Below, in pieces: positions 1 to 18,701 of a stretch of 64,000 nucleotides of DNA. How positions within the stretch are numbered: the first letter of the stretch is position 1; every line of letters starts with the position of its first letter. The position numbers and the translations under genes were made by a program. The DNA comes from Candidatus Omnitrophota bacterium (lineage in GTDB: Bacteria; Omnitrophota; Gorgyraeia; Gygaellales; Profunditerraquicolaceae). Location of the stretch: the NCBI GenBank assembly GCA_023227985.1, contig JALOCB010000003.1:5260-69259 (forward strand). The letters run 5' to 3'. Below the pieces are notes generated by a model. It saw nothing but the letters and a program-made list of their open reading frames with translations, had not been told where the DNA came from and searched no databases.

Positions 1-3
1 AGA

Positions 4-3000
4 ATGATCCAGCGTCTGGCTATTAATAATGGTACTGCCCACGGCAATAACTATGACGCTGACGGTAAACTTATTGAAACACAGATGAATTTGAAGATGA
101 CCGCGGCGATCGCCGAAGTTATTAAGGCGTATGGTATACAGATAGTCCAGCACGGCGTGACCGGAACGCCTATTAAAAATCTCCAGGCATTGCGTAATGT
201 CGGGATCAGGGCCGCTCATGTCGGGACCAATTGGCAGAATATTATTTGGGAAACTTTAGTTGCCCAGGCGCAGGCGGGTAATTCGACCGCTAAGTCCATA
301 GTAAACCGGATGATCGATGCGACTATCGCTAAGACTGCGGACGTGGAGAAGAAGTATAAAGTATCCGGCCGAAGCGCAGAAGCCAAGGATAGCGTTTATG
401 TCCCGGGAAAAGACAAGAACCTGGACAAGCTGATCGGTAAAGAATTAAAGATGGTATTAGGTGTTTTCAACGACGAGTTGGTTGCTCTTCCTGATGACTT
501 GATTGCCAAGATTGATGAGGCCACCGAAAAATCCGCTACCGAGCATATGCTGGGTTTCGGTTCTGACGGAACAGCCCAGATGGTAAAGGATGATTATGCG
601 GTTCAGGGGTTGGTTTATCCTGAAGATTTCTCCTCGATCAAAGGATTATATGCCTTTAAGGCGCTCGAAGGAACGGATAAGACGATTATGTGTTGTAATA
701 TACGTTCGCCTCTAAGCATTAGGGGTATTATGCGCGCGGCCCAAAAAACAGGCAGCGTGGTTATTTTTCAGCAGGCAATGAGCGAATTCGATTATACCTG
801 GAAAGGCGGCTATGCCCCGGAGAATGCGGCTAAGCTTGCCCGTAATATCAAAGAAGCTGCAAAAAAAGAAAATTTCCACGATTTCATGATTAAGGGCGAT
901 CATCTTACGGTTAAAGTTGATGATGCTTTCTTGAAGGATAAGGCGGCGCAGGATGCTGTTGCTGTGGTATTTGAGAAAATATTGGATGAACAGGATGTTT
1001 CCAAGCGGGAAGCATTGTTCAACGCTGCATCCAAAGACGAAGTTCTTTTAGCCAATGCCGGCGTAGCTAAAGCAATGAAAGCGGTAAATAAGGCTATGAC
1101 CTTGATCAAAGAAGAAGTTGCTTCGGATTTCACTGTTTTTGCTTTAGACGCGTCATTTATGCCTACCAGGCTTAATGTCCTGGTCAGCGCTTACCTGGCG
1201 GGGTTTATTCCCCAGGATGCAGGTTTGGAAGCTGAAGTTGGCGAGATTGGCGGAAAAGAAAATTCCACGGTTGCCGACGCGTTGGAATTCATTACCGGTA
1301 TCAGGTTCAAGGAAGAGGTTGTGGTCAGCCAGGGAGTGAAATATTCTCAGCTGGTCGGTCCGAGAAGGATCGGTGTTCTTACCGGCGGCGGACCTGCTTC
1401 CGGGCATAACGCGGTGATCGCGGCAATGGTCCGCGAAGCGGAGCAGCGGGGGATCGAGATCGTGGCTATCCCTGAAGGTTGGGCTGGTTTGACCAAGGAT
1501 GAAGTAGCCGCGCAAGCCAAGGTTATAACTATTAAAGATGTGGAAAAGTGGGGGAAGAAAGGCGGCACAATGCTGGGGACCAGCCGCACCAATCCGTATA
1601 AGAAAGAAGGGGACGCCCAGAAGGTTTGGGATAATATCCAGAAGTTAAAGCTTGACGGTCTGGTAACTCTCGGCGGTGATGATACCAACGGGGTTACTTC
1701 CAAACTGCAAAAAGAACATCCGGATTACTTATTCATTGGTCTGCCTAAGACCATGGATAATGATATAGCGCTTCCGGAGAGTGACGCGCAGACCTATGGT
1801 TTTGACAGCTTTACCGTCAAGGCCTCTGAATCGTTCGAGGCTGGAAAGATTGACGCGCAATCTACCCATAGGATACTGATCGCTGAAGTTTTTGGAAGGG
1901 CGGCCGGATTCGTTTCTGCGCGTATCGGGGCCAATATAGGGGCTACCCGCACACTGATCCCTGAAGAATTGGTTGATCTTTCAAAGTTAGTCGAGGATCT
2001 GCGCAGCTATTATAAGAATAATAAATACGGGGTTGTTGTGGTTGCCGAAGGGGCAAGCGTCAATGTTGATGGTTTCAAACTGGATGAAAACGGGGAATTG
2101 ACAGTTGTTAAGCCCGAAGACCCGGATGTAAAATTGTTGCTGGCCGCATTTAAGAGCGATCCTATGGCCAAAGCGGCTTTTATCAAGTCTATGAAAGCCG
2201 AGATGGATGATTTTGGCCACAAAAAACTGGAGAATGTCGGTCTTATTGTCGCAGCTGTGGTAAAAACCGCGTTAAAGGCGGATAAGATCGATATTAGCTT
2301 CGCCGGTAAAGCGGATTATCTTTTTCGCTCCGCCGATGTTTCCAAATTGGACGCTGAAATGACCACTATGCTGGGGAAGGCCGCTGTGGAGAAGATCGCG
2401 GATATCCAGAATGATCAGTTGCTTTACGCTTACAAGGGGCAGATTAAATCCATACCGTTTGCCCGGGAATTAGGCGGAAGGGTCCTGGATTACAAAGGCG
2501 CCCATAAAGATGAATATATGTTGGCCAACCTGGCGCTTATTGATGAAAAAACTGAAATAACGCTTTCGGATGCATCGGTTAATGAGGACTTGTTCCAGGC
2601 AGCGGTTAGAAACTTAAAAGGACTTAACCCGGGCGAATTAATGACTCTGAGTTTTTCGGAGATGAAGGTTTTGTTATGGAAGCTTAATAGCCTTGATCAA
2701 GAAACCGGGGACAATCAGGAAGTAGTTCAGTCTGTCAGAAGGATTCTGCATAGGATAGACGACAGGCAGATAGAACAGGTCAAGAAATTTGCCAATATCG
2801 GCGTGTTTGCCCGAGAAAATACTGCGTATAACCTGGAATCAGTGCTTAAGGATGACAATATCCTGGTTATCGCGGCTAACGCGCTTATTTTTCGCGCCGG
2901 AGCCTTTGCCGAATTCTATCATAATTGGGAGCCGGGAGTTAACCTCGCGGCGATCAAGTCTATGAAAGGCGGCAAAGAAGCTACTGCCGAGGAATTTGTC

Positions 3001-4767
3001 CGGCAGAACAGCCGTTATAACGGACCTTTTAGCCCGTATCAGTTAAAAGGTTTGCGCGTGCTTAAGGATGAACGCCGGGTGATTGATGGTGTCGCTGTTA
3101 ATTTCATTTTCGTGCCCGCGGATAAGAATATCGGAAGGCCGGATATCAAGATACCATATTTCGGCCCGGAAACAACTAACCAGCAGGTGCTTGATACTAT
3201 GAAGGCCTTAGGTTTAGAGTTGGATGTCATGGCCTATTACGGCCCGACCAGCGAAACGGTTCAGCCCAGGATATTCAAGGAGTTCATTGAGGCTGGATTG
3301 CCTGTTGTAGCAGCTTCTCCGGTCAACACCGACGCTGTAAAAAATATGCTCAAAGCTAAGTTTCAGCAGGAAGGTGTTGCGGATGATATGCTGGATGAAG
3401 CGGTGAGTAAGGCTTTTAAGGAAGGTTTGTATTCCGCTACCCGTAAAGAAATCGGCGCGGATGTCAAGATCGTGGATACTTTAAGCTGCACTTCCAATGC
3501 CATGATTTCGGTTATTAAAGCAATGTGGGATAAGTTCGGTATCGATCATGGTACCGGCCTGACTATTCATTCCCAGACTGATTCCAATGAGACTTTCCCG
3601 ATGAAAAGCGGCAGGGCCAGGGATCCCCTGGATATCGCCCGCGGCGATTCCATCCGTGACAACATAATCCCTGCTTCAACCGGCGCAAAAAAGAACCTCT
3701 TTAAGATGATCCCGGAATTAAAAGGCAGGTTCGAGATCACCGCTGTTCGCACCGGTACTGTTTCGGCTTCGACCTGGGAGATGACCATGGACCTTAAGAC
3801 TGAAGTGACCAGGGATGATGTCCTTGCGGCTTTAAAGGATTTCGCCCTGAATAAGACCGACGGGGTGGTGAAATTTCACGAAGGAGACCCGGACAGGAAT
3901 CCCGGGCCTCTGGACGCCAACGCCGTGGTCGGCTGGAATAATGTTTCTATTATCGACAGTTTATTGATCAATGTTCTGGATAATAAGAAAACAGTGACTA
4001 TTAAAGGTTTGTATGATAACCAATCAGCGGCGCCGAATCAAATGGTTTCTAAATGGTCGCCGTGGATGGTTGACGGTTTAAGGCTGCGCCAGATAGTCGG
4101 CGAAAAGAACAGCAAAAAGCTGAACAAAGCCGAAGCTGTAGCGTATGCCAAACTCAACGCCGGTTATGCCGGCCTGCTTAAAGCCGTAAGCGCGGTAAAA
4201 ACCAGCGGAGCTCTGGTGGTCAGCGCTGACGTGGTCTTAAAGAACGCCGGGACGCTTTCATCGCTCAAAGCCTTGAAAGAATCAGGCGCTCTTATTGAGA
4301 TCATTGTCCAGGCGAACAACAAGGCTGTCGCTGATAAAATGGTATCAATGGGCGTTGAACAATTCGCGAGCATTCAGTTCAAGCAGGTTAACGCGATAGT
4401 AGAAGAGTTGAATACCAAAGGTATAACTGATGAAAGAATAGTAGTGCTTAAGACCAAAGCTGAATCGAAAGAAGAAGTCAAGAATACCGTCAAGGTGGTC
4501 AATGTCGGCGAAGCTAAAGTCGCCGAATCTTCTGTTAATGCCATGTCGATAGCAGTGGCAAAGGCAGTAACCACCGTGTTGCAGGATAATACGGAGGTTG
4601 TTGATCAATATCAGCAGATGGCGAAGAATTACGCCGAAGCTAACGACGTCGAGCTAAGCAAACTGGAAGATCTGACCAGCCAGATCTCGGATATGCCGCT
4701 GGTTAAGGTGAGCGAAGAAGTGGTCAAGGCTCAGGTTACTTACGAAGAAACTGTAAACAAGATCTAA
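4..4767 (+). CDS. Giant multidomain glycolytic fusion protein, 5'-partial (>1587 aa): class II fructose-bisphosphate aldolase segments + PPi-type 6-phosphofructokinase + GAPDH + conserved C-terminal module
   Basis: ORF is open from window position 4, so the gene continues upstream. aa 1-90 match the class II FBA C-terminal half (GTAHGN..., IVQHGVTGTP vs FVFHGGSGST). aa ~200-450 match the class II FBA N-terminal/catalytic half (TIMCCNIRS..VVIFQQA; IKGDHL = HxDH; EVGEIGGKEN). aa ~455-850 match PFK (RRIGVLTGGGPASGHNAVI; GGDDTNG; PKTMDNDI; FGRAAG). aa ~930-1270 match GAPDH (catalytic SCTSNAM, HSQT, NIIPASTGAAK). aa ~1395-1587 form a module shared with the next gene. Confidence 0.8.
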   Translation: MIQRLAINNGTAHGNNYDADGKLIETQMNLKMTAAIAEVIKAYGIQIVQHGVTGTPIKNLQALRNVGIRAAHVGTNWQNIIWETLVAQAQAGNSTAKSIVNRMIDATIAKTADVEKKYKVSGRSAEAKDSVYVPGKDKNLDKLIGKELKMVLGVFNDELVALPDDLIAKIDEATEKSATEHMLGFGSDGTAQMVKDDYAVQGLVYPEDFSSIKGLYAFKALEGTDKTIMCCNIRSPLSIRGIMRAAQKTGSVVIFQQAMSEFDYTWKGGYAPENAAKLARNIKEAAKKENFHDFMIKGDHLTVKVDDAFLKDKAAQDAVAVVFEKILDEQDVSKREALFNAASKDEVLLANAGVAKAMKAVNKAMTLIKEEVASDFTVFALDASFMPTRLNVLVSAYLAGFIPQDAGLEAEVGEIGGKENSTVADALEFITGIRFKEEVVVSQGVKYSQLVGPRRIGVLTGGGPASGHNAVIAAMVREAEQRGIEIVAIPEGWAGLTKDEVAAQAKVITIKDVEKWGKKGGTMLGTSRTNPYKKEGDAQKVWDNIQKLKLDGLVTLGGDDTNGVTSKLQKEHPDYLFIGLPKTMDNDIALPESDAQTYGFDSFTVKASESFEAGKIDAQSTHRILIAEVFGRAAGFVSARIGANIGATRTLIPEELVDLSKLVEDLRSYYKNNKYGVVVVAEGASVNVDGFKLDENGELTVVKPEDPDVKLLLAAFKSDPMAKAAFIKSMKAEMDDFGHKKLENVGLIVAAVVKTALKADKIDISFAGKADYLFRSADVSKLDAEMTTMLGKAAVEKIADIQNDQLLYAYKGQIKSIPFARELGGRVLDYKGAHKDEYMLANLALIDEKTEITLSDASVNEDLFQAAVRNLKGLNPGELMTLSFSEMKVLLWKLNSLDQETGDNQEVVQSVRRILHRIDDRQIEQVKKFANIGVFARENTAYNLESVLKDDNILVIAANALIFRAGAFAEFYHNWEPGVNLAAIKSMKGGKEATAEEFVRQNSRYNGPFSPYQLKGLRVLKDERRVIDGVAVNFIFVPADKNIGRPDIKIPYFGPETTNQQVLDTMKALGLELDVMAYYGPTSETVQPRIFKEFIEAGLPVVAASPVNTDAVKNMLKAKFQQEGVADDMLDEAVSKAFKEGLYSATRKEIGADVKIVDTLSCTSNAMISVIKAMWDKFGIDHGTGLTIHSQTDSNETFPMKSGRARDPLDIARGDSIRDNIIPASTGAKKNLFKMIPELKGRFEITAVRTGTVSASTWEMTMDLKTEVTRDDVLAALKDFALNKTDGVVKFHEGDPDRNPGPLDANAVVGWNNVSIIDSLLINVLDNKKTVTIKGLYDNQSAAPNQMVSKWSPWMVDGLRLRQIVGEKNSKKLNKAEAVAYAKLNAGYAGLLKAVSAVKTSGALVVSADVVLKNAGTLSSLKALKESGALIEIIVQANNKAVADKMVSMGVEQFASIQFKQVNAIVEELNTKGITDERIVVLKTKAESKEEVKNTVKVVNVGEAKVAESSVNAMSIAVAKAVTTVLQDNTEVVDQYQQMAKNYAEANDVELSKLEDLTSQISDMPLVKVSEEVVKAQVTYEETVNKI
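4190..4767 (+). repeat. Copy A of a duplicated ~570-nt segment encoding the shared C-terminal module (paired with 12130..12698)
   Basis: The last ~60 nt (gatctgaccagccagatctcggatatgccgctggttaaggtgagcgaagaagtggtcaaggctcaggttacttacgaagaaactgtaaacaagatctaa) is about 80% identical to the last ~60 nt of the next gene (gacctgaccagccagatctcggagatacccatggccaaggtcagcgaagaagtcgctaaggcgcaggccacttatgaggagactataagcaagatataa). Protein-level similarity extends ~190 aa upstream (ALVVSADVVLKNAGTL... vs ALVVSANAVLNNAGTL...). Confidence 0.7.
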
Positions 4768-4773
4768 CATTCT

Positions 4774-4828
4774 CAAGACCCGGTCTTGCATCCCAATGAG
4801 TCCTAATGGGTTGCAAGACCGGGTCTTG
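4774..4828. repeat. Paired palindromic motif CAAGACCCGGTCTTG ... CAAGACCGGGTCTTG. It forms a ~22-bp stem hairpin 7 nt after the stop of giant gene 1.
   Basis: caagacccggtcttgca-tcccaatgagtcctaatggg-ttgcaagaccgggtcttg. The arms are reverse complements, and each 15-mer is itself a near-palindrome. No U-tract follows. Confidence 0.75.
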
Positions 4829-4925
4829 AACATGTCTTTATATGAATAAGATAAATCCGTTTCAATTTAAAAACCGCAACAGGCAGAAGTTGTAATTTAA
4901 TTCAAATCATCAACCGGAGGGAAAA

Positions 4926-7900
4926 ATGTTCGTAAGGTTATCCCAAAACAACCTGTTCAGGAAGATCGTCGGCATTCTTATTCTTTTACAATTTTCAGCC
5001 GGTTTTGCCGTGATTAGGGGTTATGCTGCTCCCGGAAATTTGCGGCCTGCCGCCGTCAAACAGGATGGTTCCCGGTCCGGGACTATCCAGAATTCGCTTG
5101 ACGCGGCCAGCCTGGATAAGGTTATAAAAACCCCGGTCATTCATAAGGACGGCGGTATAACCGGCCAGGATGTTTTTAAGAATATCCTTGGCGAATACCG
5201 TGTTTCCTCCACGATAAACAATCTCGCTTTCGGGACGTTCGTCCAGGGGCAGATCGACCTTAGTTCGGTTCAGAACCGGGAAGCGCTGGTCAATAATTTC
5301 GGGGAGATTAAGAGCAAAGATCGTTTTTTTACCCTTGAATACGCGGGAATTCCGCTTGCCCTGGTCAAGAAGGCCGAAACCGGAGAAATTACCGTCAAGA
5401 AAGTAGTCGAAGACATTGCTTCGATCCCGCTCAACATCCTTTCCGACAATGCCGAAAAGCTCAAAACCGAAGGTGTTACTTCCTCGGATATCCTGGTCCG
5501 CGATTTTCTTATCCTTGAAAAAAGGTCGCGTATCGACATCACTCAGTGCATGACCGTAGAGTTTGGCGAGCTGCGCGACTACGTATACAATCTGGCTAAA
5601 AATGTCGGCCAGGAAAAGGCACTGGAGATGGCATCGGCGTTTGCGGGTAAGGCTACCGTTGACGAGGCTATGGCGGAAGTCGGCGAGAAAGCTAAGCAGT
5701 TAGGCCGCGACCAAGCGAAGGACACAGGTCTGGCGCTGGCCGGCGGTAAGGGTTTGAGCCTTTCGGTCATGAGCCGCGTGGTTGACGTGCCGCCTGGTTT
5801 GAACGTTACTACTACCGCGTATTTTAAGTTCGTCAAAGATAATAAACAGGTCTGGGAGAAGATCTTTAATGAGCTGCAGACCTTGGATACTATGGATGAC
5901 CAGAAGCGCGACGTTGTCACTTCGGAGATCCGCGATGTCATTAAAAGCGCGCCGATACCCGAAGACATCAAGGCTGAGGTAACAGCAATGTACCACCAGC
6001 TAAGCGTTATCCGTTTTCTTGCCGGTAAACCTTCGCCCGCTCCGGTGGCTGTCCGCTCTTCCGGCACCAAAGAGGATATTCACGTTAAAACCTGGCTGCC
6101 GGTTTCCACCGGTTCCCAGGCCGGCCAGTCGGATACATTCCTTAATGTTAAGGGCGAACGGGATGTCCTGGATAAATTACGCGCCGATTGGGCGTCTTTA
6201 TTTACCGATCGCGCGGTCAGCTACCGTGATGACGCCACCTTCTTGCAGTTCTCTGGAGCCATCGATTTTAACGGTAAGACTTCTCAGGATGTCTATTGGG
6301 GGATCGTGGCGAAGCTTCGGGAATACTCCAAGAAACTGGATAAGCCTGAATATAACGTGTACGCTGACTTAATGAGTAAAGTCACCAGCCCTAACCCTGG
6401 GTCGGTGAGCCTGATGAACGCCATGGAGGAGATCCTGAGACAGGAATCGAATCCGGAGATGTCCAATGCCCTTGCCGTTCTGAAGAAGAAAGCAGAGGAG
6501 GTTGTGCATCCCGAACAGATCGGTATCGACGTTGTGATCATGCAGATGGCTAAGAGTTATCTTGCCGGCGTGCTTTTTACCGTCAATCCGGCGACCAAGA
6601 TGGCCGGTGTGGCCCAGTCGTTATACAAGTCATGGTATATGGGTGATGATTCGCTCGTGTACCGCGACGCGAAGACCGATATTATCCAGGGAACCAGGCC
6701 CATAGTGGTGAGCTTTGATGTGGCCTTCGGCTACGGCGAGAACGTAGTCGGCGGCAAGGTAAACCCGGACAAGTTCATTATGGGCACCTACGACGGCGAG
6801 AGCTGGTTTGTTATCGAGAAAAGCAAAGGCAATAAACTTATTCAGATGAAGGACGTGGAAGAAGTCATCGATCTCCTCAAAGACAAGATATCGGAAAAGG
6901 GCCAGCGGCAGCTCGCTATGACCGTGAAAGACGCGATCGCGTATGATGAGGTCGGCAAGCGGATCAACGGCATTATGGCGACCAAACTCTACGGTATCAA
7001 GTATCTTAAGGCGCTTGAGGGTAAAGAGGAAAGCGATAAAGACAAGAAGGCCCGCGTACAGGCTATCGCCAATGAGATTGCCGACATGGTCAAGAATAAG
7101 GTTTCCGAGGATGAAGTTGTCGCGTTCATCAAGGGTAACTTTGAGGTCGTTAACCGGAAGGGCTATAAAGGCATTCAGGAAATGGCGCTTTCGGGAGTGG
7201 TCAGGGAAGTGTTTGAGAAAGTCCAACAGGCCCAGGCTGAGACCGACCGGGGTATGTTTAAACTCTCAAAGCAGCTCGGCGATATGGGAAAGGCCGATAC
7301 GCTTATCCATATGATCAAGGAGGTTTGGGAGAATAAGGAATTTACTCTTTCCGACCGCCAGGCGATTCTTGACAAACTGAACCTTACCAACCAGGAATTG
7401 CGTAATATGAGTTACCTTATCCGCGCGCTGGTGGATAATAGCTTTACTTCAAATTATGAGACTACTTTAACCCACCAGGATACCTTTACTATGACCGATG
7501 ATCAGGCCCAGTATGTGGCGCGTATGGGTTGGGCGATCACCGAATATTATAAGGATGCCCGAGATATAGAGTATGCCATCGAGATAGATAAAACCGCTTC
7601 TTCCGACAAAGCGGTGAGGCTTTACGTTGTGGACGACCTGGGCAATGTCCAGGGAATGGACAATAATGGCAACCTGGTAACGGTGAAGTCCGAAAAGGAT
7701 AAAGCGCGTATAAAAGAAGCGAAGCTGCGCCTGTATAACGTGCAGGCCCGTCCGTATACCGCGGAATACTTGAAGGTGGATGTAATGCGCGCCCGGACCG
7801 AAGCGGATGAAAAGTGGCTTGAGGAGAATTCTCCTAAAGCGATTGCCAGCGGGACTAAGGGAGAGAACGCGACGCAGGGTTATGTGCTGGTGTTCGATCC

Positions 7901-10900
7901 TAACAAAGACGTTGCCTGGCACGCGGACCAGATCCGTCGTTTGAAAGCCGGAGATTTTACTGCGGAGGAAAAAGCCCAGATCATGGCTATGGGGTTTAAT
8001 CCCGAAGAGTATGGTTCAGGCAAAGAAAAGCAATTGTCGGTTATTCTTTATCTGCTTGAAGCTGACCCGAATCATGATCCGATCATGCGCCTGGTTGATT
8101 CGGTTGTTACTATCCGCGGCGGCGATACCTGCCACGCGGCTATCTTTTGCCGTGAACAAGGGATCCCTGCGGTCACCGGCGCGGGCAAGGTTATACTCAA
8201 CGGCCAATTGCTTAAGACCGGTGACGCGGTTACCGTTGATGCTAATAACGGGAATATTTACGAAATGCCCGCTGATGCCGGAGCGCGCATTCCGATCAAC
8301 TACGTGAAATTCAAGATTAAACCGTATGGCATCCCCGGCGACGACGACAATATGCCGTATCCGGGCATCGGCCAGATCATCGCCGCGGCAAGTGCCGCTC
8401 AGCAGAACTCGCCTATTATGCTTGCGGTTGACGCGGTCGGTAACTCGCTGACCCGCGCCGAGTTCAAAGGCGAAGAGATCGGTATCAACGTTTACGCCGG
8501 CTATGGCCATTATCTTTTACAGCAGATCAAGGCCGGAAAAATAAAGGAGCCAGTGAGGGTGCGTGTCCAGGAATTGATCCAGGGCAAGGTTCCCGGCGCA
8601 AAGAGGTTCGTGGACAATATTGAAAATGTTATGGCAGGCGCTTTTGCCAAGGATCCCGCCGCGCGTTCGGCATATCGCGACATTATGGGTAAGGATTTCA
8701 ATAAGGCGGATAGCCTGCAATTGCTGGAGTTTTTCGATTTGAAGAGCGACATTGAGCTGTATGGATTGGATGCGCTTAAACTGGTAAAACAGCAGGTTGA
8801 TATTCTTGATCTCGTTCCCCGGCTTCCGGAGAATATGTATCAGACGCTTGAATATCTTTATGGCGCCACTCAGCGCAGGCTCAACTATGATTATAATATT
8901 ATCGCCGATCTTCAGAACCATCCGTGGATACTGAAAGAAGTCGATTCTAAACTCGCGGAAAAGGGTTACGCGACGTTCAAGGAATACATCACTAACGAAT
9001 TCCTGTATTTTTACAATTTGATGGGTTTTACCATTGCGCCCGATCAGACCGCCAAGAACAGGGCTTACGATTTCGCCCAGGATAAGATCCGCGGCATGCC
9101 CGGTTCCGAGGTTTTTTCCTGGCCCGGAGTCAATCCGTTGGTCGGTTTGCGCGGTACGTCGTTGGAGATCGAGGCCTTTGACGAAGATTTCGGCGGCAAT
9201 CAGCTGGTATTGGATTTTCTTTTTGATTCCGTGATCCAGGCGCACCAGAATACCGGTAACCAAGCCTGGTTTTATGTGTTTGTCCGTTCTTCCCGGGAGT
9301 TAGAGACCCTGGATAAGATCATTGAGCACAAGGCTAAGCAGACCGGGAAGCTTCCGAAAGAGATCGGGATCATGATCGAAGTTCCCAGTGCCGCTTTGGT
9401 GGCTGATGAGCTTGCTGTTAAGATGTCCGAGATGGAGAAAAAATATAAGAAGTATGGCGTTGAGCATACTTTCTTTTCCTTCGGCACTAACGACTATTCG
9501 CATCTTGCTGGTATGGGTGACCGTGAAGACCCGCGAATGAAACTCAAGATTATGGATCCCGCAGCGATCGAAGCGATCGGCGAGATGAAAGCAGCGGGGT
9601 ATTATTATGATGATGCTGCTAAAGTGCTTCCGTTGATTGATGAAGGCGCTGATGTTATGCAGCAGCTTATGGAAACAGTGGTTGCTGCGGCTAATGGTTC
9701 AAGCGTGGCTACCTCGCTTTGCGGCGAGGCGATCACCGCCCTGGTTAACCGCGGGGATTATGAGACCGCAGGCAAGATAATGGCGCTTCTGGATTCTTTC
9801 GGCGTGAGCATGATGAAAGTCCGCCTCGCAGCTTCAATGACGCGCGTGGACACCATGGCGGCTACCAAAGGGATCACCATTCCGGAAGCCGGACGTTCGA
9901 TCCTGTTCGATTTGTCTGCCGGCGAGGTGAAACAGAAAAAGGGCGTCATCAAGGGCGAGATAATATTCGTTGATAATGCCGATGATCTCGTCCCGAACGT
10001 CCTTAAAGGCCTTCAGGGTCCGGAGCTGACGAAAAAGAAAGAGATGTTCAAGCTCCAGAGCCTGGAAAACGCCCGTTCGACTATGCGTACCTTCAATAAG
10101 ATCGTAATTATCACTAAAAACCTCGTTGCTCAGCAGGAGCCTGAGTTGGTCGCGGAGATGGGCAAAGCCGCATTCAGCAAGTTTGTCAATGACGGCCTGC
10201 TTAAAGATATCGGTAATGGGCAGTATGTCTGGACGAATCTGGGTGTAAAGACGGAGAAGTTCAACCAGGAATTGACAATTCAAGGTTTCTCTGAAAAAGA
10301 ACGTAAAGCTATTGAAGGTTTGTGGCAGAAGGCCTGGGATAACAGCATTGAAGGGCTTGAGCGCCGCGGAATTGATTGGGATGATCTACAATATGCCAAG
10401 GCTATAATCGTTGATGCGGACGTTAACCTTGATGGCTGGGATGTGTTCCGCAAGGACAAGAGTATTATTCCGACCCGTATCAAGGCTACGGTCAAAGGTA
10501 TAAGCTCCCGCCGTGCGGAGTTAGAAGGGCAATTGGCAACTATAGATTACGCCGCTAAGAAGGTCTACAAGGATTTTCTCAGCGTGGAAAAGATCGCTGC
10601 CGTCCTGCGCAGTCTTCCTATCCCAGCGGAAAAGCCTATGATAACTACGCAATCGGCTGTCGCGGAGAACGCCAACAGTGTATACCAGAAGATCGGGTAT
10701 CATCCTAAGCTCCTTCTTGCCTATGAGCGGAATGCTGTGAATGAACTTGGAAAGATATTCGAGGAATATGTAGGCAAGCTGGTTGAAGAAGTTGAAAAAG
10801 TTACTCAGGAGACCGACGTTCAGAAACGCGTATGGCTTTTACAGAAACTGCAGAATAAAGTTGGCGGGCTTGCGGAACCGATGATCAAATCGTTTATGAG

Positions 10901-12698
10901 CGATGTGCTTTCCGAGGCCATGCGCACAGGTGCGGTAACGCTGCCGGATAACTGGAACAAGAAGCTTTGGGAGGCCTATCGCAGCGACCTGGAAAGCGAG
11001 ATCAGTAAGATCCTTAACGGAAAGACGGTTGAGCAGTATTTTATCGCGCAGTTCAGCGAACAGATGAAGGAAGTGCTCTCCGCCAACAAAGGGGCATTGG
11101 TTGTCCATCTTTTGGGAAGCCTCAACTGTGTTGATTTCTTTAATATGAAAGGCGGTTTCCTGGTTGAACAGGTCAATCCCAACCCTGATTACGGCATTCT
11201 TGGAGCGGCGCGCGCAATAGGGGATATGTGGGAGATAAACCGCATGGAATTGTCCGCTTTTAAGGCGGTATGGGATAATCTGCCGGTTGACCAGCGCGGT
11301 AATTTTGGCCTGCAGATCACCAATCTCAAAGGCACCCAGTCCGGCGCGGTGGTGATCGGCTGGCGTAATATTCTGAAACAAACCGGTATTATCCCGGGGC
11401 AAGACGGTTTGCAGGTTGGCGTCAATATCGTCACTCCGGCGGATAGCATCGCTGCGGATAAGTATTTTGAGTACTTTAATACGCTCGGAAGCGGGTTAAG
11501 TTTTATCTCATATGATGCGTTGAAGCTTGGCGCTGCCTGGGCCGGCGTGGATATTTTTTGGAAGGAATGGAGGAGGCTGGCTAAGGAAGATGAGTTGTTG
11601 AGGTTCGGCGTCATGACCGGCTGGATGGCGGAAGCCAAGGCTCTGAGGTTCGGCGGCAAAGTCCTTTCCTTTGATATTTCTGACGAAGCCAAACAGACTG
11701 ACGGCGGCGCTGAGGTTGTGCCTTACCGGGTAGTGGTGGAGAATCTCTTCCGGGGGATCATTAAGAAATATGATGCTTTGGATAACGGCCAAGCTCTTTC
11801 TCTCGAAAAAGAAGAGTTGGAGGCAATACTCTGGATCTTGAATTCTTCTCCTTTTGAGAATATGTCAAGCCCGTTTGCCGCGATCAAGAGTATGAAGAAT
11901 ATCAGGAATGTGATCGAAAGGCTCAGCGATGACCAAAAGAAGGCCCTAAGTGTACTTTCACAGGGCTTGGTTTTTGTCAATCACGGGCTGGATAAAAAGG
12001 TGGCGGCATTGCTCGTAGACAAGAAGTTGCTCGACACCGCATATGAATCCGACACGGCGGTATATAAAGGGTTGAACAGCGGTTTTGACAGCTTCGCCAA
12101 TGCCTTGAAAGAGGTTAAGAATGCCGAGGGCGCTTTAGTGGTTAGCGCAAATGCTGTGTTGAATAACGCCGGAACGCTGAGAGTCCTGAGAGAAATAAAA
12201 GAAACCGGGCTGACCTTGGAAATAATCGTCCGGGCTGATACGGAAGATCAGGTGAATAAGCTGATTGCCCTTCGGGCAGACGAAGTCGCGACTATCCAGG
12301 CCAAGCGGCTGTCAGTTGTGCTCAGCGGCTTGAAGAACGCGGGTATAACCGATGGCAAGATAGTGGTGATTAAAGGCAAAGAAGAAGTAAAAGACGCGGT
12401 AGAAGCCGGCGTAAAGGTCGTAGAGATCTCCATGCCTAAAACAGAGGAGTCCAGTATCAACTCCATGGCCTTAGTTGCGGCAAAAGCGGTAATCATAGTG
12501 TTAAATGGTGAAGAAACGGTTGCCGCGCAATACCGGGAAATGGCGGTAAAATACGCCGCAGATAACAGCGTAACCTCTGAAGAATTGGATGATCTGCAGG
12601 ACCTGACCAGCCAGATCTCGGAGATACCCATGGCCAAGGTCAGCGAAGAAGTCGCTAAGGCGCAGGCCACTTATGAGGAGACTATAAGCAAGATATAA
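4926..12698 (+). CDS. Giant 2590-aa protein: N-terminal hydrophobic anchor/signal + pyruvate phosphate dikinase/PEP synthase-like enzyme + ~900 aa unassigned region + conserved C-terminal module
   Basis: RBS ggaggg lies 6 nt upstream of the ATG. N-terminus has the hydrophobic stretch IVGILILLQFSAGFAVI followed by RGYAAPGNLRPAAVK. PPDK N-terminal domain: GGKGLSLSVM...VPPGLNVTTTAYFKFV and VAVRSSGTKED...NVKGERDVLDKLRADWASLFTDRAVSYR. Phospho-His swivel motif: RGGDTCHAAIFCREQGIPAVTG. PEP-utilising TIM barrel: IGIMIEVPSAALVADE...FFSFGTNDYSHLAGMGDRED. The C-terminal ~190 aa are closely related to the C-terminus of the previous gene. Confidence 0.8.
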   Translation: MFVRLSQNNLFRKIVGILILLQFSAGFAVIRGYAAPGNLRPAAVKQDGSRSGTIQNSLDAASLDKVIKTPVIHKDGGITGQDVFKNILGEYRVSSTINNLAFGTFVQGQIDLSSVQNREALVNNFGEIKSKDRFFTLEYAGIPLALVKKAETGEITVKKVVEDIASIPLNILSDNAEKLKTEGVTSSDILVRDFLILEKRSRIDITQCMTVEFGELRDYVYNLAKNVGQEKALEMASAFAGKATVDEAMAEVGEKAKQLGRDQAKDTGLALAGGKGLSLSVMSRVVDVPPGLNVTTTAYFKFVKDNKQVWEKIFNELQTLDTMDDQKRDVVTSEIRDVIKSAPIPEDIKAEVTAMYHQLSVIRFLAGKPSPAPVAVRSSGTKEDIHVKTWLPVSTGSQAGQSDTFLNVKGERDVLDKLRADWASLFTDRAVSYRDDATFLQFSGAIDFNGKTSQDVYWGIVAKLREYSKKLDKPEYNVYADLMSKVTSPNPGSVSLMNAMEEILRQESNPEMSNALAVLKKKAEEVVHPEQIGIDVVIMQMAKSYLAGVLFTVNPATKMAGVAQSLYKSWYMGDDSLVYRDAKTDIIQGTRPIVVSFDVAFGYGENVVGGKVNPDKFIMGTYDGESWFVIEKSKGNKLIQMKDVEEVIDLLKDKISEKGQRQLAMTVKDAIAYDEVGKRINGIMATKLYGIKYLKALEGKEESDKDKKARVQAIANEIADMVKNKVSEDEVVAFIKGNFEVVNRKGYKGIQEMALSGVVREVFEKVQQAQAETDRGMFKLSKQLGDMGKADTLIHMIKEVWENKEFTLSDRQAILDKLNLTNQELRNMSYLIRALVDNSFTSNYETTLTHQDTFTMTDDQAQYVARMGWAITEYYKDARDIEYAIEIDKTASSDKAVRLYVVDDLGNVQGMDNNGNLVTVKSEKDKARIKEAKLRLYNVQARPYTAEYLKVDVMRARTEADEKWLEENSPKAIASGTKGENATQGYVLVFDPNKDVAWHADQIRRLKAGDFTAEEKAQIMAMGFNPEEYGSGKEKQLSVILYLLEADPNHDPIMRLVDSVVTIRGGDTCHAAIFCREQGIPAVTGAGKVILNGQLLKTGDAVTVDANNGNIYEMPADAGARIPINYVKFKIKPYGIPGDDDNMPYPGIGQIIAAASAAQQNSPIMLAVDAVGNSLTRAEFKGEEIGINVYAGYGHYLLQQIKAGKIKEPVRVRVQELIQGKVPGAKRFVDNIENVMAGAFAKDPAARSAYRDIMGKDFNKADSLQLLEFFDLKSDIELYGLDALKLVKQQVDILDLVPRLPENMYQTLEYLYGATQRRLNYDYNIIADLQNHPWILKEVDSKLAEKGYATFKEYITNEFLYFYNLMGFTIAPDQTAKNRAYDFAQDKIRGMPGSEVFSWPGVNPLVGLRGTSLEIEAFDEDFGGNQLVLDFLFDSVIQAHQNTGNQAWFYVFVRSSRELETLDKIIEHKAKQTGKLPKEIGIMIEVPSAALVADELAVKMSEMEKKYKKYGVEHTFFSFGTNDYSHLAGMGDREDPRMKLKIMDPAAIEAIGEMKAAGYYYDDAAKVLPLIDEGADVMQQLMETVVAAANGSSVATSLCGEAITALVNRGDYETAGKIMALLDSFGVSMMKVRLAASMTRVDTMAATKGITIPEAGRSILFDLSAGEVKQKKGVIKGEIIFVDNADDLVPNVLKGLQGPELTKKKEMFKLQSLENARSTMRTFNKIVIITKNLVAQQEPELVAEMGKAAFSKFVNDGLLKDIGNGQYVWTNLGVKTEKFNQELTIQGFSEKERKAIEGLWQKAWDNSIEGLERRGIDWDDLQYAKAIIVDADVNLDGWDVFRKDKSIIPTRIKATVKGISSRRAELEGQLATIDYAAKKVYKDFLSVEKIAAVLRSLPIPAEKPMITTQSAVAENANSVYQKIGYHPKLLLAYERNAVNELGKIFEEYVGKLVEEVEKVTQETDVQKRVWLLQKLQNKVGGLAEPMIKSFMSDVLSEAMRTGAVTLPDNWNKKLWEAYRSDLESEISKILNGKTVEQYFIAQFSEQMKEVLSANKGALVVHLLGSLNCVDFFNMKGGFLVEQVNPNPDYGILGAARAIGDMWEINRMELSAFKAVWDNLPVDQRGNFGLQITNLKGTQSGAVVIGWRNILKQTGIIPGQDGLQVGVNIVTPADSIAADKYFEYFNTLGSGLSFISYDALKLGAAWAGVDIFWKEWRRLAKEDELLRFGVMTGWMAEAKALRFGGKVLSFDISDEAKQTDGGAEVVPYRVVVENLFRGIIKKYDALDNGQALSLEKEELEAILWILNSSPFENMSSPFAAIKSMKNIRNVIERLSDDQKKALSVLSQGLVFVNHGLDKKVAALLVDKKLLDTAYESDTAVYKGLNSGFDSFANALKEVKNAEGALVVSANAVLNNAGTLRVLREIKETGLTLEIIVRADTEDQVNKLIALRADEVATIQAKRLSVVLSGLKNAGITDGKIVVIKGKEEVKDAVEAGVKVVEISMPKTEESSINSMALVAAKAVIIVLNGEETVAAQYREMAVKYAADNSVTSEELDDLQDLTSQISEIPMAKVSEEVAKAQATYEETISKI
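12130..12698 (+). repeat. Copy B of the duplicated C-terminal-module segment (paired with 4190..4767)
   Basis: See copy A. The two copies can be aligned codon by codon. Confidence 0.7.
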
Positions 12699-12704
12699 TA
12701 TATT

Positions 12705-12758
12705 GAGGCCGGGTCTTGTAACCGATTCAAACGCAAGGGAATACAAGACCGGGTCTTG
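12705..12758. repeat. Second occurrence of the (G)ACCGGGTCTTG palindromic motif pair, 7 nt after the stop of giant gene 2 and abutting the RBS of giant gene 3
   Basis: gaggccgggtcttgtaaccgattcaaacgcaagggaatacaagaccgggtcttg. Same core motif and same two-copy architecture as at 4774..4828. Confidence 0.7.
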
Positions 12759-12778
12759 ATAATTAGAGGAGGGAAAAG

Positions 12779-17399: not shown

Positions 17400-18701
17400 A
17401 TGTTAAGGCGCATCAGGACAATTAAAAAAAAGGTTAAAATCATATTCTGCGCGGCAGCCGCGGTTTGTGCGGTTGTGTGTTTTTTACCGGTAACCTGCCA
17501 GGCGGGTATGGCGGGTAGTGAACAGATAAGCGCGCTAAGCTTAAAAGGCATCCAATGGGAGAGCCTGCCGGGCGGGGGGACGCGCTTAAAGATCTTTGCT
17601 GACGGCTTAAAGGCCGGAAGGTTTGAGCCATTGATCGATCCGGAAGAGTCCGGGCGCAGGTTAATGGATTTTTTTATCCTGGGTTTGAATGTCCGGGAAG
17701 ACAAATTCTGGGCCAATCTTACTCCCGGCGATCCGGATAATATCATTGACCCGGATTTGGCCGGGACGCCCTTAGGCGAGGTTATGCTCAGGGCGGACCT
17801 GAGATTGAAAAAAGATTTCTGTGAATTGACCAACCCGCAGTTTTCCCAGCCCGGCAAAAAATACTGGGCAGCCTTATCGGAAAAAGCGGCGGAACTGGGC
17901 ATTAAGAAAATACCCGCGATGAACCGCGTGTGGATAGTCCCGGAAGAGGCTGCGGTTTATGAGGCCGGAAACGGGGCTTATATAACCGAAAGCCGGCTTA
18001 AGGTCTGCCTGAAAATAAATTATTCAGCCGGTCTTCTTAAGGACGGCGGCGGTAAGGCGTACGGCGAACTTTCGGAGTATGCCGGAGAATTGGTAAGGGA
18101 TATTATTTTGCCTGAATTGGATAAAAGGGTTAATGAGGATTTCCTCTATGCTGACCTGAGGCAGGTAAATAGGGCATTGATACTGGCCAGATGGTATAAT
18201 AACAAATTCGGCGATGGCGGGGGATTTAATTTAAAAAATACCCTGACAGCATCGAGCCGGCCTGAGATAAACGCGGGCTTGCTAAAGAAACAGATATATG
18301 ATGATTACATGGATTCTTTGAGCAATGGCGAATATGTGGTCGTCGGGCCGTCAGGCTGGTCCAGCGCATTGGATTATTTAAGGCCTAAGAAACGTTATAT
18401 CAGCGGAGGTGTTGATTTGCGCAAAAGTCCGGCAAGGCGCAGCCCGGCGCCTGCGGCAGCCTGGCAAGGCCGGGATCCGCAGTTTACATTTTTAGTGGAA
18501 ATATCCGCGCAGGCAGTTATGTCCGCGGGAGATAAAAATAATGCGATAAATGATTTTTCCGTCATAGGAAATATCGGGGATAATAATGTAGAAGGGCTAA
18601 TCCGGGATTTGCCGGGAATATCGCCTTCGCGTAATAACCGGGATGCGGAAACCGATATAAATAAAGGCGTTATAAGCGATATGGTATTATATAGTTTATA
18701 A
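17400..18701 (+). CDS. Hypothetical secreted/membrane-anchored protein (433 aa)
   Basis: Long ORF with coding-like composition. N-terminal hydrophobic segment IIFCAAAAVCAVVCFLPVTCQAG. No recognisable catalytic motif. Confidence 0.5.
   Translation: MLRRIRTIKKKVKIIFCAAAAVCAVVCFLPVTCQAGMAGSEQISALSLKGIQWESLPGGGTRLKIFADGLKAGRFEPLIDPEESGRRLMDFFILGLNVREDKFWANLTPGDPDNIIDPDLAGTPLGEVMLRADLRLKKDFCELTNPQFSQPGKKYWAALSEKAAELGIKKIPAMNRVWIVPEEAAVYEAGNGAYITESRLKVCLKINYSAGLLKDGGGKAYGELSEYAGELVRDIILPELDKRVNEDFLYADLRQVNRALILARWYNNKFGDGGGFNLKNTLTASSRPEINAGLLKKQIYDDYMDSLSNGEYVVVGPSGWSSALDYLRPKKRYISGGVDLRKSPARRSPAPAAAWQGRDPQFTFLVEISAQAVMSAGDKNNAINDFSVIGNIGDNNVEGLIRDLPGISPSRNNRDAETDINKGVISDMVLYSL

What the first reader, a model, noticed from the sequence alone, without database searches (positions are those of the whole stretch)
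4..1350. Class II aldolase sequence appears in permuted or duplicated order (C-terminal half first, catalytic N-terminal half second)
The window opens inside aldolase C-terminal motifs (GTAHGN, IVQHGVTGTP). These are followed, after ~100 aa, by aldolase N-terminal/catalytic motifs (TIMCCNIRS, VVIFQQA, IKGDHL). The second segment runs directly into the PFK domain without its own C-terminal half. There are two possibilities. Either two aldolase-like domains lie in tandem, one truncated, or a single circularly permuted aldolase lies inside the megaprotein.
Basis: seen in the sequence. Interest (0 to 1): 0.5.

Follow-up and report, generated by a model that had tools for sequence, protein, structure and literature searches.

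The report
Circularly permuted class II aldolase domain
The first gene in the window starts with a metal-dependent sugar-splitting enzyme (class II aldolase) whose two halves are encoded in swapped order but are predicted to fold into one ordinary barrel. It is a clean natural case of circular permutation, and related bacteria still carry the tandem-duplicate architectures such a permutation would start from.

Summary
Window aa 4-123 match the C-terminal part of the class II aldolase profile. Aa ~225-434 match the N-terminal part, and PFK follows at aa 455.

I recovered the source contig. Gene 1 starts only 85 codons upstream of the window, with a hydrophobic leader and no aldolase N-half. No other aldolase piece lies in the 64 kb window or the 5 kb recovered upstream of it.

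The two halves match canonical Omnitrophota relatives in exactly complementary, swapped order. The break lies in a lineage-specific hairpin between alpha5 and beta6.

AlphaFold2 models aa 1-455 as one compact eight-stranded barrel (pLDDT 89, pTM 0.88). The three presumed metal-binding histidines (H14, H51, H301) and the catalytic Asp are conserved. Both halves are under strong purifying selection.

Seven other independent assemblies carry the same architecture. Relatives include tandem forms (aldolase-aldolase, aldolase-GlpX-aldolase) and a C-half-GlpX-N-half form. This fits permutation by duplication and truncation.

Verdict: a true circular permutation. It is a new variant of a known kind and moderately interesting. 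I found no earlier description.

The parts
1..222 (+). Aldolase strands beta6, beta7 and beta8 with their helices (aa 1-74), encoded first. Carries the presumed metal ligands H14 (nt 40-42, 'NNGTAHGN') and H51 (nt 151-153, 'VQHGVTGTP'), and 'HVGTNWQN'. The domain really begins about 35 codons upstream of the window: leader, vestigial strand 'AIQSDLFINKDG', strand 'GKFMVLSRGKGL'.
   Evidence: Pfam profile 167-273 on aa 4-123. AF2 strands at aa 5-8, 47-50 and 69-74. Upstream part read from the source contig L006 4821-5075.
223..615 (+). Helix alpha8 and the family's C-terminal helical extension (aa 75-205), ending at 'GFGSDGTAQMV'. This is the old C-terminus of the canonical domain.
   Evidence: Aligns to P0001 residues up to 514 and to the C-terminal end of the stand-alone 359-aa relatives such as P0007. 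All-helical in the AF2 model at pLDDT 88-97.
616..681 (+). Connector that joins the old C-terminus to the old N-terminus (aa 206-227, 'KDDYAVQGLVYPEDFSSIKGLYAFKALEGTDK', including helix alpha0). In the P0034/35/36/42 relatives a GlpX-like FBPase domain of about 450 aa is inserted at this point.
   Evidence: Alignment A2. Pfam on P0034, P0035 and P0042.
682..1305 (+). Aldolase strands beta1 to beta5 with helices (aa 228-435), encoded second. Contains 'CCNIRS' (N233, R235), 'VIFQQA', 'KGDH' (D300 nt 898-900; H301 nt 901-903, the third presumed metal ligand), 'FALDAS' (D383, S385) and 'LEAEVGEIGG' (E410, E412, E415; nt 1228-1245), followed by the flexible loop 416-419.
   Evidence: Pfam N-terminal profile positions. 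BLAST to P0001 residues 59-305. AF2 strands at aa 229-233, 254-259, 295-305, 379-386 and 408-412. These columns are invariant in A3.
1306..1356 (+). C-terminal beta-hairpin of the permuted domain (aa 436-452, 'RFKEEVVVSQGVKYSQLV'). This is the new C-terminus, in the lineage-specific insertion between alpha5 and beta6.
   Evidence: AF2 strands at aa 437-443 and 446-452. Aligns to 'RYKEELKEDSKTGAMYSELV' of P0001, immediately before the point where the permuted proteins' N-terminus aligns.
1363..2469 (+). Phosphofructokinase domain, fused directly to the new C-terminus of the aldolase.
   Evidence: Pfam PF00365 at 2.8e-55, aa 456-702. NCBIfam PRK03202 on aa 455-823.

Best explanation
Gene 1 is 1673 aa, and the window lacks its first 85 codons. 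After a hydrophobic N-terminal leader it opens with one complete class II (metal-dependent) ketose-bisphosphate aldolase domain whose (beta/alpha)8 barrel is circularly permuted.

The coding order is beta6-beta7-beta8, then alpha8 plus the C-terminal helical extension, then a short connector, then alpha0 and beta1 to beta5, then a beta-hairpin. The new termini lie in a lineage-specific beta-meander inserted between alpha5 and beta6. The old termini are joined by about 20 residues.

Inferred: the barrel closes non-covalently between beta5 and beta6. The active site is assembled from both segments: H301 and D300 from the second-encoded segment, H14 and H51 from the first. The new C-terminus leads straight into PFK, whose product, fructose 1,6-bisphosphate, is the aldolase substrate. 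A GAPDH-like domain follows. The most likely role is therefore aldol cleavage or condensation inside a fused glycolytic multi-enzyme.

The permutation most likely arose by tandem duplication of an aldolase domain, with or without a GlpX FBPase between the copies. The front of copy 1 and the back of copy 2 were then lost.

Shown: swapped complementary homology, the gene boundaries, conservation, and the predicted single fold. Inferred: metal binding, catalytic activity, channelling, and the order of evolutionary events.
For: (1) Gene boundaries. The source contig ENA ERZ27247363 k141_735648 shows an ATG with a GGGGG ribosome-binding site 85 codons upstream of window position 1. The upstream gene is an unrelated 509-aa protein.

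(2) tblastn with a canonical aldolase finds exactly one C-half and one N-half in the window and in L006, L001 and L002.

(3) Complementary swapped homology. L001p 67-278 matches P0001 310-514, and L001p 302-536 matches P0001 66-305. In the window, aa 5-195 match P0001 330-514 and aa 212-455 match P0001 59-308.

(4) AF2 on window aa 1-455 gives pLDDT 89.3, pTM 0.88 and eight barrel strands plus a hairpin. The only segment below pLDDT 50 is 416-419, next to the EAEVGEIGG motif.

(6) After virtual de-permutation, one Pfam alignment crosses the former break (profile 86-273, 62.9 bits against 57.2).

(7) The presumed metal ligands and the catalytic Asp align to those of KbaY and Giardia FBA, and their columns are (nearly) invariant.

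(8) Purifying selection acts on both halves: pN 0.09-0.15 against saturated pS of about 0.7, the same as PFK.

(9) The same architecture, with a stop-bounded leader, occurs in seven other assemblies at 78-88% identity.

(10) Precursor-like architectures exist. P0031 is TIM-aldolase-GlpX-aldolase. P0033 is FBPase-aldolase-aldolase. P0034/35/36/42 are C-half-GlpX-N-half with the same break points and a similar leader. The permuted C-halves form one clade with 80% bootstrap support. A vestige of the 'xYSELVxD' strand sits at the N-terminus ('AIQSDLFINKDG') as well as at the C-terminus ('VKYSQLVGPR').
Against: There is no experimental evidence of fold, metal binding or activity.

The tool gives no model coordinates, so I could not measure barrel closure or the His-His-His geometry. 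The AF2 alignment had only 9 rows. The window model also lacks the first ~35 residues of the domain.

The N-half tree does not recover the permuted proteins as a clade (low support). The nesting of the direct form among the GlpX-bearing forms is weak (36%).

The two copies in P0033 are nearly identical, so that tandem could be an assembly artefact. P0031 does not have this problem.

The leader looks like a signal peptide or signal anchor. That would place a sugar-phosphate enzyme outside the cytoplasm and makes the physiological role uncertain.

Substrate specificity (fructose versus tagatose or another ketose bisphosphate) is not established. The family also scores weakly against GatZ/KbaZ.
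Confidence: 0.87

Rival explanations
1. Two aldolase domains in tandem. The window opens inside the C-half of a complete first domain, and the second domain is truncated.
For: Tandem aldolases do exist in relatives (P0031, P0033, probably P0004). The window alone cannot exclude this reading.
Against: The source contig and seven orthologous loci show the gene start 83-104 codons upstream, depending on which in-frame ATG is used. Each has a leader peptide, the frame is stop-bounded in the five loci checked, and there is no N-half. tblastn finds no further aldolase piece in any of the four loci tested (window, L006, L001, L002).
Confidence: 0.02
2. An assembly chimera or frameshift artefact created the odd order.
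For: The contig is a short-read metagenome assembly, and repeated aldolase domains could mislead an assembler.
Against: Both junctions (tail to N-half, and N-half to PFK) are conserved at 78-88% amino-acid identity in eight independently assembled contigs from ENA, NCBI MAGs and several JGI projects, with saturated synonymous divergence. The reading frame is uninterrupted for 1673 codons.
Confidence: 0.01
3. The permuted barrel is real but is not a fructose-bisphosphate aldolase. It could be a pseudo-enzyme or scaffold, a regulatory sugar-phosphate-binding module, or an aldolase for another ketose bisphosphate such as tagatose.
For: Pfam scores are low (about 34 bits per half) and no NCBIfam aldolase model hits. 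There are weak GatZ/KbaZ-like hits, and GatZ is a non-catalytic partner. The divergent permuted protein P0093 has replaced the EAEVGEIGG loop. The leader suggests a non-cytoplasmic location.
Against: In the window protein, all residues that align to the metal ligands and the catalytic Asp/Glu of solved class II aldolases are kept and are (nearly) invariant in the family. The domain is fused to PFK, whose product is fructose 1,6-bisphosphate. Purifying selection is as strong as on PFK.
Confidence: 0.1
4. The two segments do not pair within one chain. They form barrels between chains, as a domain-swapped dimer or oligomer of megaproteins.
For: Class II aldolases are dimers. The non-covalent beta5/beta6 seam and the duplicated 'SELV' strand could allow swapping. 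Nothing here measures the oligomeric state.
Against: The AF2 monomer model is confident as an intramolecular barrel (pTM 0.88). The connector is short but sufficient. The P0042 model, with 480 aa between the halves, still has pTM 0.75 and both halves mostly at pLDDT 70-94.
Confidence: 0.04

Closest known systems
Class IIb ketose-bisphosphate aldolases with solved structures (KbaY/AgaY tagatose-bisphosphate aldolase 8q57 and 1gvf; Giardia FBA 3gak and 2isv; Bacillus FBA 3q94 and 7nc7)
   Same: Profile-level homology (E 1e-20 to 1e-22 for the canonical relatives). Same motifs: xDH on beta3, ExExGxxG on beta5, GTxHG on beta6, HGxSG/TG on beta7. The window protein keeps them all.
   Different: The order of the barrel units is rotated, with beta6-8 encoded before beta1-5. 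The Omnitrophota subfamily also has a long helical insertion between beta3 and beta4, a C-terminal helical extension and a beta-meander between alpha5 and beta6. Sequence identity to any solved structure is very low: phmmer with the canonical relative P0001 finds no solved structure at E<=0.01.
Canonical-order aldolase domains of Omnitrophota multi-domain proteins (P0001-P0005, P0037-P0045) and the stand-alone ~360-aa relatives (P0006-P0026)
   Same: 50-57% identity per half with the multi-domain relatives. They share the same insertions and the same hydrophobic leader in several proteins.
   Different: They run N-half then C-half. The window protein runs C-half then N-half, with the break exactly in their 'YSELV-RDRD-GKPIIEHVGKGL' hairpin.
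Natural circular permutations of (beta/alpha)8 barrels: transaldolase versus class I aldolases (Jia et al. 1996), and GH70 glucansucrases versus GH13 amylases (MacGregor et al. 1996). Cited from my own knowledge; I did not read these papers here.
   Same: Same kind of event: a TIM barrel whose units are encoded in rotated order while the active site is kept. It is explained by duplication followed by truncation.
   Different: A different family. I found no report for class II aldolase. Here canonical, tandem, permuted, and permuted-with-inserted-domain forms all coexist among close relatives.
Glycolytic-enzyme domains in giant Omnitrophota proteins ('Archaeovorins'; West-Roberts et al. 2023, bioRxiv 10.1101/2023.11.21.568195)
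   Same: Same phylum and locus type. A 14,046-aa gene lies upstream and a pilZ gene downstream. That paper lists TIM, FBPase, FBP aldolase and pyruvate phosphate dikinase domains in large proteins, predicted to be extracellular.
   Different: That paper does not mention a permutation. The window proteins are 1.5-2.6 thousand aa, made almost wholly of glycolytic enzymes, rather than parts of proteins above 30,000 aa.
Thermotoga maritima PGK-TIM fusion protein (from my own knowledge)
   Same: A bacterial fusion of consecutive glycolytic enzymes. Gene 3 of the window is TIM-PGK-enolase.
   Different: It has only two domains and no permuted domain.

Membership tests
Class II (metal-dependent) fructose/ketose-bisphosphate aldolase, Pfam PF01116 | Significant match to the family profile above the curated cut-off | tested here: met
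   48.4 bits for the whole protein against a cut-off of 25.5. 57.2 bits for the complete domain, and 33.9 and 33.6 bits for each half alone.
Class II (metal-dependent) fructose/ketose-bisphosphate aldolase, Pfam PF01116 | Three histidine metal ligands (AgaY/KbaY H83, H180, H208) and the adjacent catalytic Asp | tested here: met
   By profile alignment to 8q57 and 3gak they correspond to window H301/D300, H14 and H51. These columns are invariant or nearly invariant in A1 and A3. The ligand residue numbers in AgaY are from my own knowledge.
Class II (metal-dependent) fructose/ketose-bisphosphate aldolase, Pfam PF01116 | Single (beta/alpha)8 barrel fold | tested here: met
Class II (metal-dependent) fructose/ketose-bisphosphate aldolase, Pfam PF01116 | Canonical sequential order beta1 to beta8 | tested here: not met
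   The order is beta6-8 then beta1-5. This is the finding itself. It makes the protein a topological variant, not a non-member by descent.
Class II (metal-dependent) fructose/ketose-bisphosphate aldolase, Pfam PF01116 | Metal-dependent aldol cleavage of a ketose 1,6-bisphosphate | not testable with these tools
   Needs an enzyme assay.
Circularly permuted protein domain | Two segments homologous to complementary, essentially non-overlapping parts of one domain, in swapped order | tested here: met
   L001p 67-278 matches P0001 310-514, and L001p 302-536 matches P0001 66-305. The overlap in the source contig is at most 10 residues.
Circularly permuted protein domain | No further copy of either half flanks the pair, so this is not merely a window onto a tandem repeat | tested here: met
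   The gene start is defined on the source contig and in seven orthologous loci. PFK follows directly. tblastn finds no other aldolase piece in the window, L006, L001 or L002.
Circularly permuted protein domain | The halves fold together into the parental fold | tested here: met
Permutation-by-duplication origin | Tandem-duplicate intermediates exist among relatives, and there is a leftover overlap at the new termini | tested here: inconclusive
   Tandem forms are P0031, P0033 and P0004. The vestigial 'A-x-x-S-E/D-L...KDG' strand at the N-terminus is conserved in seven orthologues. The permuted C-halves form an 80% clade, but the N-half tree is unresolved.
GatZ/KbaZ-like non-catalytic aldolase subunit, Pfam PF08013 | Match above the curated cut-off | tested here: not met
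   16.7-19.3 bits against a cut-off of 26.7.

The most novel reading that the evidence does not exclude
The permuted aldolase is one module of an exported or membrane-tethered glycolytic assembly line. Three consecutive megaproteins, all with the same kind of hydrophobic leader followed by an 'NLRP'-like motif, between them carry PFK, aldolase, GAPDH-like, TIM, PGK, enolase and pyruvate phosphate dikinase domains. They might work outside the cytoplasm, in the periplasm or at a prey interface, or in a dedicated compartment. On this reading the permutation, and the related form with an FBPase threaded between the halves, was selected because it moves the domain's termini to suit this chained architecture.
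Probability: 0.1. Interest if true: 0.85.

Novelty: new variant of a known kind. Interest (0 to 1): 0.55.

Why it matters
This looks like the first natural circular permutation seen in the class II aldolase family. The full series expected under the duplication-and-truncation model is still alive in one phylum: single domain, tandem domains, permuted domain, and permuted domain with a whole enzyme (GlpX FBPase) inserted at the joined old termini. That makes it a good natural test case for how TIM barrels tolerate re-threading and domain insertion.

It also matters for annotation. NCBIfam models miss the aldolase completely. A public relative (MDD5477846.1) is named only 'fructose-bisphosphatase class II'. 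Pathway reconstructions for Omnitrophota could therefore wrongly score aldolase as absent.

Finally, it adds detail to the little-understood glycolytic megaproteins that sit next to the giant genes of these putative predatory nanobacteria.

Tried and rejected
- I built an alignment (A3) of artificially permuted homologues to give AlphaFold deep coverage of both halves.
- I asked for a model of the complete domain including the 26 upstream residues from L006. The pairing of the N-terminal strand with the C-terminal hairpin therefore remains untested for this protein.
- The afdb50 fold library was not available, so I could not look for permuted relatives among AlphaFold DB models.

**Searches that gave nothing useful**
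- A 41-sequence MAFFT alignment (A4) put unrelated domains under the C-half. I discarded it after checking coverage.
- phmmer of P0001 against PDB sequences found nothing. A family profile was needed.
- Foldseek against the PDB gave only weak sequential hits. This is expected for a permuted barrel and not informative by itself.
- Literature searches for circular permutation of class II aldolase and for Omnitrophota glycolytic fusions found no description of this feature.

**Other dead ends**
- The first tree script timed out. I redid it with numpy distances.
- The P0042 model (C-half, GlpX, N-half) reached only moderate confidence, and its N-terminal strand region is below pLDDT 50. It supports the two-half barrel only weakly.
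- I considered P0046 as a permuted case and rejected it. It is cut at both contig ends and is more likely aldolase, metallophosphoesterase, aldolase.
- I considered that the GlpX-like domains might be chance hits. They are not, at E 2e-10 to 3e-6 in three proteins.
Full report
**1. What is in the sequence**

Frame 1 of the + strand is open from base 1 to the stop at 4765-4767.
- GTAHGN at aa 11-16
- IVQHGVTGTP at aa 48-57
- TIMCCNIRS at aa 228-236
- VVIFQQA at aa 253-259
- IKGDHL at aa 297-302

Pfam PF01116 (class II fructose-bisphosphate aldolase) matches aa 4-123 to profile positions 167-273 of 277. It matches the segment aa 201-455 to the N-terminal part of the profile, with the best stretch aa 366-434 on positions 86-154. 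PFK starts at aa 455-456, and a GAPDH catalytic domain lies at aa 1170-1294. No aldolase C-half follows the second segment. The one slip is that the spacing between the two motif groups is about 170 aa, not about 100.

**2. The decisive test: the upstream sequence**

An exact look-up of the neighbouring 2590-aa protein found the source contig, ENA ERZ27247363 k141_735648 (137 kb). Window position 1 is position 5076 of locus L006.

- Gene 1 is called there at 4821-9842 (1673 aa), so only 85 codons are missing from the window.
- These codons read MFARNGKTSVLVMVCFAVIGIFLFASMAAAGIVSSSNLRPKAVGNSDEAKAIQSDLFINKDGGSLVTGKFMVLSRGKGLVDYLGE. This is a basic N-terminus, a hydrophobic stretch of about 24 residues and a short spacer, followed by the lead-in to the C-half.
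- The ATG is preceded by a GGGGG ribosome-binding site.
- The upstream gene is an unrelated 509-aa protein.
- tblastn with a canonical aldolase domain finds exactly one C-half and one N-half in the window, in L006 and in two orthologous loci.

**3. It is a clean circular permutation**

The closest relatives with the normal order are multi-domain Omnitrophota proteins (P0001-P0005).
- BLASTP of the full-length orthologue L001p against P0001 gives two hits. Residues 67-278 match P0001 310-514, and residues 302-536 match P0001 66-305.
- The two hits are complementary, swapped and without duplication.
- In canonical proteins the break point reads ...RYKEELKEDSKTGAMYSELV-RDRD-GKPIIEHVGKGLINYG...DRIAINNGTAHG.
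- The permuted proteins start at GKF(I/M)V...GKGL and end at ...GVKYSQLV, after which PFK begins.
- After re-joining the halves in silico, a single Pfam alignment crosses the former break (profile 86-273, 62.9 bits). In the natural order the best stretch covers only 164-273 (57.2 bits).

**4. Predicted fold**

AlphaFold2 was run on window aa 1-455 with a 9-row alignment of natural permuted and tandem relatives. It gives mean pLDDT 89.3 and pTM 0.88.
- The strands are at aa 5-8, 47-50 and 69-74 (beta6-8), and at aa 229-233, 254-259, 295-305, 379-386 and 408-412 (beta1-5).
- A hairpin follows at aa 437-443 and 446-452.
- The only stretch below pLDDT 50 is aa 416-419, just after EAEVGEIGG. From my own knowledge, class II aldolases have a mobile catalytic loop there.
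- Foldseek gives only weak sequential hits, most of them TIM-barrel proteins, including GatZ and class II FBA.

This is the signature expected of a complete barrel whose register is rotated relative to its own family. The tool returns no coordinates, so I could not measure contacts or active-site distances.

A second model of P0042 has 480 residues, including a GlpX-like domain, between the halves. It reached pTM 0.75, with both halves mostly at pLDDT 70-94, but its N-terminal strand is poorly predicted.

**5. Is it likely to be active?**

A profile of canonical relatives hits solved class IIb aldolases at E 1e-20 to 1e-22: KbaY 8q57, Giardia FBA 3gak and AgaY 1gvf. In those alignments:
- the family's GDH motif aligns with the HLDH motif;
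- GTAHG aligns with GTAHG or GTSHG;
- QHG aligns with LHG or MHG.

From my own knowledge, these positions carry the three His metal ligands and the catalytic Asp. In window numbering they are D300/H301, H14 and H51. These residues, together with N233, R235, D383, S385, E410, E412 and E415, are invariant or nearly invariant across the family.

Between the window gene and its orthologues in L001 and L002:
- synonymous sites are saturated (pS about 0.7);
- pN is 0.09-0.15 in both halves;
- PFK (0.10-0.13) and the GAPDH-like domain give the same values;
- the leader and the C-terminal tail evolve much faster.

Neither half is a decaying remnant. Activity itself is inferred, not shown.

**6. Not an artefact, and how widespread**

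The same order (leader, C-half, N-half, PFK) occurs at 78-88% identity in the following:
- two GTDB Omnitrophota MAGs, JBFZAG010000097 and JAKPTF010000035;
- the 1697-aa cluster representative P0032;
- five JGI metagenome contigs from four projects.

In the five JGI loci checked, the upstream frame is stop-bounded and the leader is homologous.

- Order C then N, direct: P0032.
- Order C then N, with a GlpX-type FBPase domain of about 450 aa between the halves: P0034, P0035, P0036 and P0042.
- Order C then N in a distant stand-alone 548-aa protein: P0093.
- Tandem order N-C-N-C: P0031 (TIM, aldolase, GlpX-like, aldolase) and P0033 (class I FBPase, aldolase, aldolase).

P0004 begins with the tail of a preceding aldolase.

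**7. Origin**

The forms with and without GlpX share the leader, the start (G-x-hydrophobic...GL) and the end (KYS[KQ]LV).
- In a neighbour-joining tree of C-halves, all eight Omnitrophota permuted proteins form a clade with 80% support (200 bootstraps).
- The direct form is a 100% clade, weakly nested (36%) among the GlpX-bearing ones.
- The N-half tree is unresolved.
- P0093 groups with the stand-alone ~360-aa aldolases and may be an independent event. Its gene sits next to a GlpX-like gene.

The N-terminal spacer of the direct form keeps a vestige of the strand that also ends the domain. AIQSDLFINKDG aligns to AMYSELVRDRDG of P0001. This short piece is conserved in seven orthologues although the rest of the leader is not.

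Together with the surviving tandem architectures, this fits duplication followed by loss of the front of copy 1 and the back of copy 2. Whether GlpX was present in the ancestor and later lost cannot be decided.

**8. Context**

Genes 1-3 of the window are three consecutive megaproteins:
- Gene 1: aldolase, PFK, about 320 aa of unknown sequence, and a GAPDH-like domain.
- Gene 2: a pyruvate-phosphate-dikinase-like protein of 2590 aa.
- Gene 3: TIM, PGK and enolase.

All three start with a similar hydrophobic leader followed by an (N/D/S)LR(P/A) motif. A 14,046-aa gene lies upstream and a PilZ gene downstream.

West-Roberts et al. (bioRxiv 10.1101/2023.11.21.568195) reported several related features:
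- TIM, FBPase, FBP aldolase and pyruvate phosphate dikinase domains occur in giant Omnitrophota proteins.
- Those domains are predicted to be extracellular.
- pilZ genes lie downstream of the giant genes.

They do not mention a permutation. I found no paper describing a circularly permuted class II aldolase.

**9. Verdict**

The finding is real. The tandem/truncated alternative is wrong for this gene but describes its probable ancestor.

By descent the domain belongs to the class II aldolase family, with a non-canonical topology. Circular permutation of TIM barrels is a known phenomenon, so this is a new variant of a known kind. It has some annotation relevance: NCBIfam misses it, and a relative is publicly named only 'fructose-bisphosphatase class II'. 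It is also of moderate interest for protein evolution.

Noticed in passing
window 1-17302 (+): genes at 1-4767, 4926-12698 and 12779-17302: Three consecutive megaproteins together carry PFK, aldolase, a GAPDH-like domain, pyruvate-phosphate-dikinase-like domains, TIM, PGK and enolase. This is most of glycolysis, encoded as fusions in one co-directional row.
   Followed up: partly
window 4926-5060 and 12779-12910; L006 4821-4960 (start of gene 1): All three megaproteins, and relatives such as P0001 and P0032 (less clearly P0034-36), begin the same way. They have a basic N-terminus, a hydrophobic stretch of about 20-24 residues and, 8-12 residues later, a short conserved motif: 'GNLRPAAVK', 'DNLRPAPVK', 'SNLRPKAVG', 'SDLRAPAAR'. 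This looks like a shared signal, anchor or sorting sequence, which would put glycolytic enzymes outside the cytoplasm. No signal-peptide predictor was available.
   Followed up: no
window 2476-3440 (aa ~826-1148 of the frame-1 translation): About 320 residues between PFK and the GAPDH catalytic domain have no Pfam family. Pfam does not detect the GAPDH NAD-binding domain, but some PDB alignments reach back to GAPDH residue ~82. The catalytic 'SCTSN' cysteine motif is present.
   Followed up: partly
window 17400-18701 (+): This 433-aa protein has a signal-like N-terminus and no Pfam hit. By eye it resembles the N-terminal domain of the megaproteins P0031 and P0047 ('VWIVPE..AVVYE', 'LRQ.YN..ILA.WY').
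   Followed up: no
window 18827-19549 (+); L006 1-3054: A PilZ-domain gene follows the megaprotein row, and the end of a 14,046-aa gene lies about 2 kb upstream of gene 1 on the source contig. This matches the 'giant gene followed by pilZ' layout described for Omnitrophota by West-Roberts et al. 2023.
   Followed up: partly
P0034, P0035, P0036, P0042 (relatives, not in the window): A second permuted architecture has a leader, the aldolase C-half, a GlpX-type FBPase domain of about 450 aa, the aldolase N-half and a C-terminal domain of about 200 aa. A member of the P0036 cluster (MDD5477846.1) is publicly annotated only as 'fructose-bisphosphatase class II'.
   Followed up: partly
L007 4961-6607 (P0093, NCBI GCA_974485825.1): A stand-alone 548-aa protein has the same C-then-N order but only 25-28% identity, no leader and an altered 'EAEVGEIGG' loop. 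It lies next to an 814-aa gene with faint GlpX hits. It is possibly an independent permutation at the same loop.
   Followed up: partly
P0031, P0033, P0046/P0002 (relatives): In this lineage, aldolase domains are fused to a class I FBPase (P0033), GlpX-like class II FBPases (P0031, P0034 group) and a calcineurin-like metallophosphoesterase (P0046). The window protein pairs the aldolase with PFK instead.
   Followed up: partly
window 1-1365: No NCBIfam aldolase model hits this protein at E<=1, and each half scores only about 34 bits in Pfam. Automatic annotation and KO-based pathway scoring are therefore likely to miss the aldolase.
   Followed up: yes
L013 (Ga0182022_1175158, 1336 bp): A short metagenome contig encodes a contiguous C-half-then-N-half match at 41% identity. 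It is too short to tell a permuted gene from the middle of a tandem pair.
   Followed up: no
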